From IMG/VR virus record IMGVR_UViG_3300045988_054218: a DNA stretch of 64,000 nucleotides, one strand, 5' to 3'. Below are positions 188 through 2,333 of this stretch, in pieces (position 1 is the first letter of the stretch; every line of letters starts with the position of its first letter). The notes under the pieces were generated by a model. The model worked only from the letters and a program-made list of their open reading frames with translations. It did not search any database and was not told where the DNA came from. This stretch comes from a virus. The position numbers were made by a program, and so were the translations under genes.

Positions 188-682
188 TTGTCTGTAAAAA
201 CAAAAGATCGACATAAATCCAAGCGTGAATGTCTCCAGAAGTCACGCGAACTGGTAAATTACATTTTAGTCTTAACTCGTCCTAGAGAGTTCGACGAATC
301 TGGAAAACAAATTAAAAAACCTGGATTGCTTGGAGAGGGACAACCTTTCCAAGCGTTCGGGTTAGATATTATTAAATGCGGAAAGGGCATACATGCCGCC
401 TGCTATCAAGCCAGTGAGATCTACTTGAATAGTTAGGAAACTCTAATTGCACGAAAGAAATATTGGAATTAGGCTATCGCTTATTGCGACAGTATCTTTC
501 GTCAAATCGATCTCTGTATCTTCGAATACGCATAGACTAACCAGAAGAAACGGCGCTCTTTTGAGCATCTTGCTCGTTTAACAAAGGCTATGAAAGAAAC
601 TTTATAGGATAGAGTTAATCGAGATTATTTAATCTACGAGCATTCCTACTAGAAGCCAAAGAGTTATAGAAGAGGTCGGTAA
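188..682 (+). CDS. avd: Avd-like DGR accessory protein (164 aa with 5 in-frame TAG read as sense)
   Basis: TTG start at 188, 8 nt after AGGAAGG. ORF-track piece 188-436 continues in frame across TAG at 434, 470, 533, 605 and 650 to TAA at 680-682. The protein is small, basic and helical, and sits in the canonical slot between VR and TR. Confidence 0.55.
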
Positions 683-728
683 TGATTTTACAAGATGTCA
701 AGTTCTGTATTTTTCGCTCGCGCAACTA

Positions 729-814
729 CAACAACTCGAACAACGTGTGCAATGTCAACAACAACGGGAACGCGAACAACAACAACTACAACAACAGCAA
801 TGGCCTCGCGCCGG
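729..814 (+). repeat. DGR template repeat (TR); the 5' boundary cannot be set because the VR runs off the window
   Basis: AAC/AAT-rich copy of the VR. 12 of 16 AAY codons differ in the VR and no non-A position differs. Located between the avd-like gene and the RT. Confidence 0.9.
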
Positions 815-1100
815 ATTAGATGGAGCTATCACGTTGCAAGTCAAGCTGCGAAGCAGCGCAGACGAGCAACACCTAGAATAGTACCCCAGAATATATTATT
901 GTCCATCTAATTATGGTTTATTCTGGATGCATTGGTTCACTCTTGTGGACTAAGAAGGAGAAGGAATAGAACATATTATTAAATAGTATATTATAGGTAG
1001 ATGCCTTTTCATCTAAGGAGAACTTGACTATTTCGTCTCTGCGACGGATAAATGAATACGATTACAGATGCGGAGCTCGCGAAGTAACCGCTATTACTGT

Positions 1101-2333
1101 ATGATAAGGAGAAAGAAGTTGAGTTAGTAGTAGACATCTTTCGAGCGTTTTTGTAGTTTTGACGCATTATATGATTCCTCTTATCGAGTTTGTCGAAATG
1201 TTCGATGGAAAGATAGTACAATCAATTTTGAAGAGAATAGAATTGAAACAATCTTACAAACAGAAGCTGATTTGCGAGCTTGTGAATACAAGTAGCTTGT
1301 GTTTAGTTGTTTCTCAATCATTGAACGAGGCAAGCCACGAGATATAAGAGCGTGTCATATCAACGACAGACTGGTACAAAATGCTCTATGTGAATAGAGC
1401 TTATTACCAGAATTAACTCCTAAGTTTATTTATGATAACTGTGCAACACTTAAAAATAGAGGTATAGATTTTGCTTTAACAAGAGCAAAGAAACATTTAT
1501 AGATGGCTCATAGAGAATACGGGTTAGGAAATGATTTCTTTGCTTTACGAATTGATATTCGTAAATACTTTGATTCTATCGACCATGAGGCTCTTAAAGA
1601 AATTGCTAAGCGCGTTATTAAAGACCCTCAAATTTATGAATTATGCTCATACTTAATTGATACATTTTCTTTTAAGCTAACAAAAGATAAGCATCCAATA
1701 CCGGGCAAATAGTATTATATTGCTAAAGGCAAAAAATATATATCTGCGGATATCCAGTCTTTCCGGCCGCATCATCAATATTATGAGTGTGAAGCTAAAA
1801 GTCTTGGATTAGGGAGTCAGACATCACAGTTGTTTGCATTGCTAGCTTTGAACGAAGTTGACCATTTCATTAAAGAAGAATTACATATTAAGTATTATGG
1901 ACGCTACATGGATGACTCTTATCTTCTATGTAACGATAGCAAATACTTAGCAGAATGTAAAGCTAAGATAGAGAAGAAATTAAAAGATATAGGTCTTACT
2001 CTTAACTAGAAGAAAACCACTATCTCGCGCATTACCCCTATTGCACCTAAAGATAAGGTTCATGGCACTCCATTTAAGTATCTTAAATGGAATTTCTATC
2101 TAACTACTACAAATCATGTAATCTAGATACCTTTTAAGAAAAAGATTGTGCATTAGCGCAGAAAATTGCGTAAAATGGCCGCTTTATGGCAACAAGATAA
2201 AATTCCTACTGAAGAAATTCAGAAATCTTATCAAGGCTGGAGAGCACATATCGCTAAAGGTTCAAGCTTCTATATTATCCAAGATATGGATAATTATTTT
2301 CGTTCATTATTCAAAGGAGTTGAAATAAAGTAA
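1101..2333 (+). CDS. DGR reverse transcriptase (410 aa, 10 in-frame TAG)
   Basis: Frame 0 contains ...GKPRDIRACHINDRLVQNAL..., RIDIRKYFDSIDH and YYGRYMDDSYLL (YMDD), then LTLN-TAG-KKTTISR. ORF-track piece 1503-1712 is the middle part. TAG at 1125, 1128, 1131, 1293, 1395, 1500, 1710, 2007, 2124 and 2154. TAA at 2331-2333. The start could instead be ATG 1068 or TTG 1119. Confidence 0.85.

What the first reader, a model, noticed from the sequence alone, without database searches (positions are those of the whole stretch)
188..2333. The DGR machinery is itself TAG-recoded, with three consecutive TAG codons at RT codons 9-11
The RT reading frame contains 10 in-frame TAG codons: 1125, 1128, 1131, 1293, 1395, 1500, 1710, 2007, 2124 and 2154. 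The avd-like gene contains 5: 434, 470, 533, 605 and 650. TAG-TAG-TAG lies right after the RT start.

Under the standard code neither protein can be made. Mutagenic retrohoming would therefore be possible only once TAG suppression is active in the infected cell.

This would couple tropism diversification to a genetic-code switch. I am not aware of this having been analysed, and it also means standard-code pipelines would miss or fragment this DGR.
Basis: inference. Interest (0 to 1): 0.7.

Follow-up and report, generated by a model that had tools for sequence, protein, structure and literature searches.

The report
TAG-recoded DGR in gut phage
This gut phage reads the stop codon TAG as glutamine across most of its late genes, so the in-frame TAGs in its mutagenic retroelement genes are ordinary sense codons; this has already been reported for other phages.

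Summary
The RT frame has 10 in-frame TAGs and the avd-like gene has 5, at exactly the listed coordinates. TAA and TGA are absent from both frames.

These TAGs are not specific to the DGR. The whole window is TAG-to-Gln recoded (code 15). TAG swaps with CAG/CAA within the population, and TAG never ends a gene. Close relatives carry a suppressor tRNA(CUA) in a tRNA array about 5 kb beyond the window's right end.

The DGR is active. In 16 near-identical contigs the TR is constant, while every VR differs at TR-adenine sites.

TAG density in avd (3.05%) and RT (2.48%) is about 2.4 times the mean of the other 30 genes called in window 188-43,623 (1.11%). It lies within the range of single genes, and sister clades show no consistent enrichment.

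The RT start is most likely TTG 1119, so the triplet sits at codons 3-5, not 9-11. It is the only TAG-TAG adjacency in the window. It may act as a stringent translational gate, but nothing here tests that.

TAG-recoded DGR RTs have been published (Lou et al. 2023 preprint; a 2025 paper on Zeta crAss-like phages). The fragmentation claim holds: the 82-aa truncated avd product is in public databases. Interest is low to moderate.

The parts
1..106 (+). 3' end of the DGR target gene (stop TAA 104-106). It contains the variable repeat (VR), of which window 1-89 is the visible part.
   Evidence: VR 1-89 against TR 729-817: 18 of 18 mismatches fall on TR adenines. The full-length target in relative L001 (3084-5006) has two Big_3 domains and a C-terminal DUF6273 domain.
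188..682 (+). avd-like accessory gene: TTG start, 164 codons, in-frame TAGs at 434, 470, 533, 605 and 650, TAA stop.
   Evidence: Homologues start MSVK, and TAG140 aligns with a conserved Gln of the motif 'QDR'. There is no Pfam, PHROG or PDB sequence hit. A model of a 75%-identical homologue is a four-helix bundle (pLDDT 89); its best PDB matches are 2gsc and 2rld, with weak E-values.
715..817 (+). Template repeat (TR), adenine-rich (AAC codons), non-coding.
   Evidence: The TR is nearly invariant in 16 relatives, while each VR is different.
1106..1111 (+). Shine-Dalgarno sequence AAGGAG of the RT gene, 7 nt upstream of TTG 1119.
   Evidence: It is conserved in all clades, whereas the start codon downstream of it varies.
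1119..2333 (+). DGR reverse transcriptase: TTG start, 404 codons, 10 in-frame TAGs, motifs GSQTSQ (codon 232) and YMDD (codon 263), TAA stop.
   Evidence: Pfam RVT_1 at 7e-16 and PHROG 1423 at 3e-83. Motifs and start-type codons are; TAG positions are.
1125..1133 (+). TAG-TAG-TAG at RT codons 3-5.
   Evidence: Present in all 20 window-clade sequences (including the window). It reads TAG TAG AAA in L016 and L017. It is the only tandem TAG in the window.
2333..2998 (+). Conserved ORF that overlaps the RT stop (TAATG). It has 2 TAGs and no known function.
   Evidence: It follows the RT in every clade, including the standard-code relative L034. No significant family hit.
2979..3428 (+). Small membrane protein (PF06541-like), free of TAG.
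3432..3477 (.). Strong bidirectional terminator-like hairpin between the DGR cassette (+) and the tail-gene block (-).
3482..41580 (-). Virion and packaging gene block, TAG-recoded. It includes a 2902-aa tape-measure-like ORF with 31 TAGs and a terminase large subunit at 37607-39346.
41618..64000 (+). Non-structural arm that is almost compatible with the standard code. In relatives it leads into the tRNA array that holds the suppressor tRNA(CUA).

Best explanation
The window comes from a gut tailed phage of about 145 kb. Its terminase is about 50% identical to those of Enterococcus and Geobacillus siphoviruses. The phage has reassigned TAG from stop to glutamine (genetic code 15).

The DGR cassette runs target 3' end/VR, avd-like gene, TR, RT. 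It lies in the recoded part of the genome, so the 15 in-frame TAGs are sense codons. They are read by a phage-encoded suppressor tRNA(CUA), whose gene sits in a tRNA array downstream of the TAG-poor non-structural arm.

Shown here:
- the recoding itself;
- TAG = Gln;
- the presence of the suppressor tRNA in close relatives;
- the DGR is actively diversifying its target in nature.

Inferred from the published model, not tested here: RT and Avd are made only after the suppressor tRNA has accumulated, that is, late in infection, like the virion genes.

The high TAG share of RT and avd, and the TAG triplet at RT codons 3-5, are most simply explained in two steps. First, CAG/AAG-to-TAG changes drift in weakly expressed genes with poor codon adaptation. 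Second, the N-terminal tail is poorly conserved. A side effect is that RT output is kept low and late.
For: **Recoding**
- Reading through TAG raises the longest ORF from 422 to 2902 aa.
- About 25 of the 32 genes called in 188-43,623 carry TAG.
- None of the 42 plus-arm ORFs ends in TAG.

**TAG = Gln**
- Gln is the commonest residue opposite TAG in the RT alignment: 299 of about 1,300 residues, against a 3.2% background.
- Within the clade, TAG swaps with CAG/CAA at 10 or more RT codons and at avd codon 17.
- avd TAG140 aligns with a conserved Gln.

**Suppressor tRNA**
- A tRNA with anticodon CUA scores 54.5 bits with Rfam. It is identical in five relatives that share 96-99% identity in the flanking protein, and it lies about 5 kb past the window's right end on the + strand.

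**DGR identity and activity**
- RT domain and the GxxxSQ and YMDD motifs.
- 18 of 18 TR/VR mismatches fall on TR adenines.
- 16 relatives have a constant TR and 16 different VRs.

**Not specific to the DGR**
- In sister clades the RT/avd TAG density is above its neighbours in some clades and below in others.
- An unrelated recoded phage family shows RT 1.2-2.65% against neighbours 1.0-1.5%, with no N-terminal TAG.

**Codon adaptation**
- RT and avd rank among the lowest genes for codon adaptation.
Against: - No suppressor tRNA lies in the window itself. Its presence is inferred from relatives.
- The tRNA(CUA) has an atypical 20-nt variable region, so charging with Gln is not proven.
- The timing of expression is inferred only.
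- avd and RT rank 1st and 3rd of 32 genes for TAG density (nominal p = 0.002).
- The triplet is the only tandem TAG in the window.
- A second clade, L035, has TAG at RT codons 2 and 5.
- Drift alone may therefore not explain everything.
- The correlation between TAG density and codon adaptation is weak once the TAG-free reference genes are excluded (rho = -0.24, p = 0.23).
Confidence: 0.88

Rival explanations
1. The TAG triplet at RT codons 3-5, with the high TAG load of RT and avd, is a selected translational gate. Without abundant suppressor tRNA, ribosomes release a dipeptide. With suppression efficiency p per codon, the yield scales roughly with p cubed. RT dosage and timing, and hence mutagenic retrohoming, would then be controlled more stringently than other late genes.
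For: - It is the only TAG-TAG adjacency in about 14,000 codons, and the earliest TAG of any gene in the window.
- The chance under uniform placement is about 1e-4.
- All 20 window-clade sequences keep it, and two of the three TAGs are kept in the 87%-identical L016 clade.
- The 59%-identical L035 clade independently starts GTG-TAG-GAC-TCC-TAG, and its RT carries 17 TAGs in 388 codons.
- Four of about 11 distinct tandem-TAG sites found in 463,593 codons of relatives lie in the RT.
Against: - The clades that keep it are closely related, so its conservation carries little weight.
- Other recoded clades (L019, L022, L027, L033) and the independent ~100-kb phage family have no N-terminal TAG in the RT.
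- The N-terminal tail varies in sequence between clades.
- Given a Gln-Gln-Gln run, the chance of three TAGs is 1.5-8.5%.
- The RT is over-sampled, because every locus was retrieved through it.
- No expression data are available.
Confidence: 0.15
2. TAG is decoded as an amino acid other than glutamine, such as Ser, Leu or Tyr. The reason to consider this is that the suppressor tRNA(CUA) is 91 nt long with a class-II-like extra arm.
For: The tRNA has a 20-nt variable region with a 4-bp hairpin and the discriminator base G73. From established knowledge, seryl-tRNA synthetase recognises a long variable arm and ignores the anticodon.
Against: - Gln is about 8-fold enriched opposite TAG, whereas Ser, Leu and Tyr are not.
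- Population polymorphisms run between TAG and CAG/CAA, not TCG, TTG or TAT.
- The acceptor end (U1, G73) is of the tRNA-Gln type; this is from my own knowledge and was not tested.
- The extra arm is much shorter than that of the tRNA-Ser in the same array.
Confidence: 0.05
3. The TAGs are real stops or errors. The DGR would then be decaying, or a shorter RT would be made from a downstream start.
For: Under code 11 both genes are broken. Public databases hold only the 82-aa avd fragment.
Against: - The same TAGs occur in 22 contigs from several samples.
- TAA and TGA are strictly excluded from both frames.
- VRs differ between near-identical genomes at TR-adenine sites, so the DGR works.
- There is no start-type codon between codons 1 and 52, and seven TAGs lie downstream of that.
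Confidence: 0.02

Closest known systems
TAG-recoded persistent gut phages with DGRs (I57_PsAC1, I79_PsAC1 and I123_PsAC1; bioRxiv 10.1101/2023.08.07.552389)
   Same: They are code-15 phages. Their DGR RT carries multiple in-frame TAGs and lies next to a tail-protein target, and the VR changes over time. IMG/VR holds at least 594 stretches encoding relatives of the RT sequence printed in that paper; all but two of the 41 distinct RTs analysed carry in-frame TAGs.
   Different: They belong to another phage family: genomes of about 100 kb, with Bacteroides predicted as the host of one. Their RT is not closely related to this one, has no N-terminal TAG cluster (first TAG at codon 39 or later), and shows similar or milder TAG enrichment.
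Zeta crAss-like phages with DGRs (PMC12386605)
   Same: That paper reports amber suppression in seven DGR RT genes. It also notes that this makes DGRs harder to find.
   Different: They are Crassvirales with a different genome architecture, and most lack an avd gene. The phage here is a siphovirus-like phage of about 145 kb with a Firmicutes-type terminase.
Model of stop-codon recoding as a regulator of late and lytic genes (bioRxiv 10.1101/2021.08.26.457843)
   Same: The early genes are compatible with the standard code. A suppressor tRNA is encoded. The late genes carry in-frame recoded stops.
   Different: That preprint does not mention DGRs or reverse transcriptases. It emphasises preferential recoding of lysis genes, not of retroelement genes.
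Bordetella phage BPP-1 DGR (mtd-avd-TR-brt)
   Same: Same gene order: target 3' VR, accessory gene, TR, RT. Same adenine-specific mutagenesis signature, and the same GxxxSQ motif in the RT.
   Different: BPP-1 uses the standard code, has a recognisable Avd and a C-type lectin target. Here the target domain is DUF6273, and the accessory protein has no sequence match to Avd.

Membership tests
Diversity-generating retroelement (DGR) | Reverse transcriptase of the DGR clade, with the GxxxSQ motif and YxDD | tested here: met
   RVT_1 at 7e-16 and PHROG 1423 at 3e-83. GSQTSQ at codon 232 and YMDD at codon 263.
Diversity-generating retroelement (DGR) | A TR/VR pair that differs only at TR adenines | tested here: met
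   18 of 18 mismatches fall on TR adenines over the 89 nt visible in the window. The same pattern holds over the full repeat in 16 relatives.
Diversity-generating retroelement (DGR) | VR at the 3' end of a target gene that encodes a ligand-binding domain | tested here: met
   In L001 the target has two Big_3 domains and a C-terminal DUF6273 domain that holds the VR. The window contains only its last 106 nt.
Diversity-generating retroelement (DGR) | Evidence of ongoing mutagenic retrohoming | tested here: met
   16 near-identical contigs have a constant TR and 16 different VRs. The variation lies at TR-adenine columns.
Avd / 23S rRNA intervening-sequence protein family (PF05635) | Sequence match to the family profile | tested here: not met
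   No Pfam, PHROG, NCBIfam or PDB sequence hit. None of the 85 homologues carries a precomputed Pfam domain.
Avd / 23S rRNA intervening-sequence protein family (PF05635) | Small basic four-helix bundle encoded between the target gene and the TR | tested here: inconclusive
   The model of a 75%-identical homologue has pLDDT 89 and is a helical bundle with a hairpin insert. Its top PDB matches are 2gsc (TM 0.82 normalised by target length) and 2rld ('S23 ribosomal protein family'), with E-values of only 0.13-0.5. Its genomic position is canonical.
Code-15 (TAG to Gln) recoded phage | In-frame TAG in many genes, and TAG never used as a stop | tested here: met
   None of 42 plus-arm ORFs ends in TAG.
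Code-15 (TAG to Gln) recoded phage | TAG aligns with glutamine in homologues | tested here: met
Code-15 (TAG to Gln) recoded phage | Phage-encoded suppressor tRNA(CUA) | tested here: met
   There is none in the window. It is present and identical in five close relatives about 5 kb beyond the window end. What it is charged with cannot be tested with these tools.
Code-15 (TAG to Gln) recoded phage | A gene block compatible with the standard code that could be translated before the switch | tested here: met
   In the plus arm (41.6-64 kb), standard-code ORFs cover 73% and code-15 ORFs cover 79%. The timing of expression cannot be tested here.

The most novel reading that the evidence does not exclude
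The cluster of TAG codons directly after the RT start is a selected, dosage-limiting gate. The cluster is TAG-TAG-TAG at codons 3-5 here, and TAG at codons 2 and 5 in the 59%-identical L035 clade. It would make reverse-transcriptase synthesis depend steeply on suppressor-tRNA level. Mutagenic retrohoming would then be confined to the late, multi-copy stage of infection, and RT kept scarcer than other late proteins.
Probability: 0.15. Interest if true: 0.5.

Novelty: new member of a known kind. Interest (0 to 1): 0.27.

Why it matters
There is a practical consequence. Standard-code annotation truncates the avd-like protein to 82 aa and breaks up the RT. DGRs of this abundant gut phage lineage are therefore missed or listed as 'hypothetical' fragments in NCBI and IMG records. 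DGR surveys need to take the genetic code into account.

The biological interest is limited. The case adds a Firmicutes-type phage lineage of about 145 kb to the recoded phages known to run an active DGR. It also shows that the retroelement tolerates a high load of reassigned codons.

Only the N-terminal TAG cluster hints at something more, namely a steep translational gate on a mutagenic enzyme. That idea is untested.

Tried and rejected
**Searches that found nothing useful**
- megablast of window 1-8000 against GenBank phages: no match.
- tblastn of the RT against GenBank phages: at most 35% identity, so no annotated close relative exists.
- Pfam, PHROG, NCBIfam and PDB sequence searches with the avd-like protein: nothing.
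- tRNA and Rfam scans of the window: nothing.
- tRNA scan of the first 50 DGR loci: no suppressor tRNA near the DGR.
- Walking leftward from the window, about 15 kb beyond its start: no tRNA. The tRNA array lies to the right.
- The published version of the stop-codon recoding paper was not held, and one literature search returned nothing. The preprint was read instead.

A 75%-identical database homologue was modelled instead.

**Analyses of limited value**
- Codon-adaptation test: RT and avd are poorly adapted. The correlation between TAG density and adaptation is weak outside the TAG-free reference genes (rho = -0.24), and it is partly circular when those genes are included.
- No stop-codon set gives long ORFs in 43.6-57 kb. 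That region remains unexplained.

**Hypotheses rejected**
- Sequencing artefact.
- Pseudogene.
- Rescue by a downstream start.
- ATG 1101 as the RT start.
- Trinucleotide slippage as the origin of the triplet. The sister clade reads TAG TAG AAA at the same length, so the difference is substitutions, not an insertion or deletion.
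Full report
**1. The observation**

Translating frame 1119/1101-2333 and ORF 188-682 with TAG read through gives uninterrupted proteins.
Both ORFs end in TAA.
- TAA and TGA are absent from both frames, yet they are common in the other two frames of the same DNA: 9-26 TAA and 2-21 TGA in the RT region.
- In-frame TAG is about as frequent as base composition predicts: 10 against about 8 in the RT, and 5 against about 3 in avd.
- The frames therefore exclude two stop codons strictly and do not avoid the third.
- The same TAGs recur in 22 contigs from several metagenomes, so they are not sequencing errors.

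**2. What the genes are**

- *RT.* It matches Pfam RVT_1 (7e-16) and PHROG 1423 'reverse transcriptase' (3e-83). It carries the DGR-type GxxxSQ motif (GSQTSQ, codon 232) and YMDD (codon 263).
- *TR and VR.* Window 1-89 (VR, at the end of a gene that stops at 104-106) and 729-817 (TR) are 80% identical. All 18 mismatches fall on TR adenines. The TR spans about 715-817.
- *Target.* In the 97%-identical relative L001, the full target ORF has two Big_3 domains and a C-terminal DUF6273 domain that holds the VR.
- *Accessory gene.* The ORF between VR and TR occupies the canonical Avd position. It has no sequence match to Avd or to anything annotated. A model of a 75%-identical homologue (pLDDT 89) is a four-helix bundle. 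Its best PDB matches are 2gsc and 2rld ('S23 ribosomal protein family'), but with weak E-values of 0.13-0.5. 'Avd-like' is therefore reasonable but not proven.

**3. The DGR works**

I compared 16 related contigs that have near-identical TRs. Every VR is different, and the variable columns are almost all TR-adenine positions. These genomes carry the TAG-laden RT and avd genes. Both proteins must therefore be produced, which means TAG is read through.

**4. The TAGs are a property of the genome, not of the DGR**

- Treating TAG as sense raises the longest ORF from 422 aa to 2902 aa, and others reach 1296, 913 and 652 aa.
- The minus-strand block 3482-41580 encodes virion and packaging proteins, and most of them carry TAG.
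- The plus-strand arm from 41.6 kb onward is nearly TAG-free. Standard-code ORFs already cover 73% of it, against 79% under code 15. It holds metabolic and nucleic-acid-type genes.
- None of its 42 ORFs ends in TAG.
- The terminase is about 50% identical to those of Enterococcus phages and Geobacillus virus E3, which have genomes of about 140 kb. Related IMG/VR contigs reach 148 kb.

**5. TAG means glutamine**

- In an alignment of 44 distinct RTs, Gln is by far the commonest residue opposite TAG: 299 of about 1,300 residues, against a 3.2% background.
- Within the species-level clade, TAG alternates with CAG or CAA at RT codons 59, 87, 93, 128, 234, 297, 336, 346, 359 and 368, and at avd codon 17.
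- avd TAG140 aligns with the conserved Gln of the motif 'QDR'.

**6. The suppressor tRNA**

- The window has no tRNA. I walked rightward from its last gene.
- Relatives with 96-100% identity in that gene have an array of more than 20 tRNAs and a tmRNA on the + strand, starting about 2.7 kb past the window end.
- The array includes a 91-nt tRNA with anticodon CUA about 5 kb past the end. It is identical in five contigs and scores 54.5 bits with Rfam.
- This tRNA has a U1·U72 mismatch, the discriminator G73, and an unusual 20-nt variable region.
- Its position downstream of the TAG-poor arm fits the published model. In that model, standard-code genes and the suppressor tRNA are expressed first and recoded genes later (bioRxiv 10.1101/2021.08.26.457843). 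I could not test the timing here.

**7. Is the DGR machinery especially TAG-rich?**

- *In this window.* avd has 3.05% TAG codons and the RT 2.48%, against 1.11% pooled for the other 30 genes called in 188-43,623. They rank 1st and 3rd of 32. The nominal binomial p is 0.002. TAG makes up 0.44 of Gln-type codons in these two genes, against 0.245 elsewhere (p = 0.01).
- *Caveats.* Genes differ widely in TAG content. One virion gene has 2.82%. Six probable high-expression genes have none and use CAG almost exclusively. The pooled test therefore overstates significance.
- *Codon adaptation.* RT and avd are among the least codon-adapted genes, but the correlation is weak outside the TAG-free reference set.
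- *Sister clades.*
  - Higher than neighbours: L016 (1.9%) and L035 (4.8%).
  - Near its neighbours' range: L033.
  - Lower than neighbours: L019, L022, L027.
  - avd is TAG-poor in most of these clades.
  - L034 is a standard-code relative.
- *An independent family.* IMG/VR holds at least 594 stretches encoding relatives of the RT sequence printed in Lou et al. In the 41 distinct RTs analysed, recoded clades have RT at 1.2-2.65% against neighbours at 1.0-1.5%, one clade is lower, and two distant loci carry almost no TAG.
- *Conclusion.* Enrichment is modest, lineage-specific and not a rule.

**8. The triplet**

- *Start codon.* The block CATGATAAGGAGA is conserved in every clade. The start codon after it varies: ATG at 5-6 nt in L022 and L032, TTG at 7 nt here. 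ATG 1101 is out of frame with the RT in the L022 clade. The start is therefore TTG 1119, and the triplet occupies codons 3-5.
- *No bypass.* No other start-type codon occurs before codon 52, which lies beyond the conserved FERFCSFDALYD...RNVRWKDST motif. The triplet must be translated.
- *Rarity.* It is the only TAG-TAG adjacency among 35 runs of Gln-type codons in the window, and the earliest TAG of any gene. Tandem TAGs are rare in relatives too: about 11 distinct sites in 463,593 codons, four of them in the RT.
- *A second clade.* The L035 clade independently starts GTG-TAG-GAC-TCC-TAG.
- *Against a special role.* Other recoded clades and the independent family have no N-terminal TAG. The N-terminal tail is poorly conserved. 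The clades that keep the triplet are close relatives. The RT was over-sampled by the way loci were retrieved.
- *Verdict.* I rate a selected 'gate' function at about 15%.

**9. Comparison with the literature**

- The 2023 preprint by Lou et al. (10.1101/2023.08.07.552389) describes three code-15 phages. This window adds a different phage lineage and the N-terminal triplet.

**10. The practical claim is correct**

The exact 82-aa product of avd cut at its first TAG is in the public protein collection. Its cluster has 41 members, and the listed members are nearly all 82 aa. They include NCBI DAM21802.1 and DAP43370.1 ('MAG TPA: hypothetical protein [Caudoviricetes sp.]') and IMG proteins on contigs of 142-148 kb. 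The exact full-length 164-aa sequence is absent from the collection, and the closest full-length homologue is only 75% identical.

**11. Verdict**

- The DGR is not singled out, the enrichment is weak, and the phenomenon is already known.
- This is a new member of a known kind, with interest of about 0.27.

Noticed in passing
window 43600-57000: This region differs in composition from the rest of the window: GC 43-47% against 35-40%, and AT skew +0.13 to +0.18. It has only short, overlapping ORFs on both strands under every stop-codon set tried. A few PHROG hits occur: antitoxin-like (48047-48778), exonuclease-like (51471-52256) and nucleotidase-like (52338-52790).
   Followed up: partly
L068 13686-20600 (about 2.7-10 kb beyond the window's right end in relatives): A phage-encoded array of 25 tRNAs and a tmRNA (97.6 bits with Rfam; tag peptide DNDYFDSHMAA in L068, DNNYFDSHMAA in L055 and L066). 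It lies on the same strand as the TAG-poor arm.
   Followed up: partly
L068 16050-16140: The suppressor tRNA(CUA) is 91 nt long. It has a U1·U72 mismatch, the discriminator G73, and a 20-nt variable region that forms a 4-bp hairpin containing AAGGAG. This architecture is unusual for a tRNA that should insert Gln.
   Followed up: partly
L055 13048-13122; L056 18304-18380; L060 19478-19552: ARAGORN reports a tRNA with an 8-nt anticodon loop ('anticodon tgtt'). The corresponding gene in L068 is called tRNA-Asn(gtt). It could be an unusual or quadruplet-reading tRNA, or simply an ambiguous call.
   Followed up: no
window 2333-2998: A 221-codon ORF whose ATG overlaps the RT stop (TAATG). It follows the RT in every clade, including the standard-code relative L034, and matches no protein family. 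It may be an additional DGR-associated gene.
   Followed up: partly
window 3482-4264, 25542-26075, 27870-28811, 31911-32456, 32528-33556, 33575-34255: Six virion genes in the recoded block have no TAG at all. Five of them encode Gln mostly or only with CAG, and 3482-4264 uses CAA more. TAG therefore looks like a non-preferred Gln codon that is avoided in probable high-expression genes.
   Followed up: partly
L001 3084-5006: The DGR target gene of the closest relative has no TAG in 640 codons. The target genes of sister clades have 4-8 TAGs (L016, L022, L027).
   Followed up: no
L034 (IMGVR_UViG_3300045988_145614): A relative with 61% RT identity and the same gene order has essentially no in-frame TAG. 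The phage family therefore contains both standard-code and TAG-recoded lineages, which makes it useful for dating the reassignment.
   Followed up: partly
window 188 and 1119: Both DGR accessory genes appear to start with TTG. This is consistent with low translation initiation, which would add to the effect of the TAG load.
   Followed up: no
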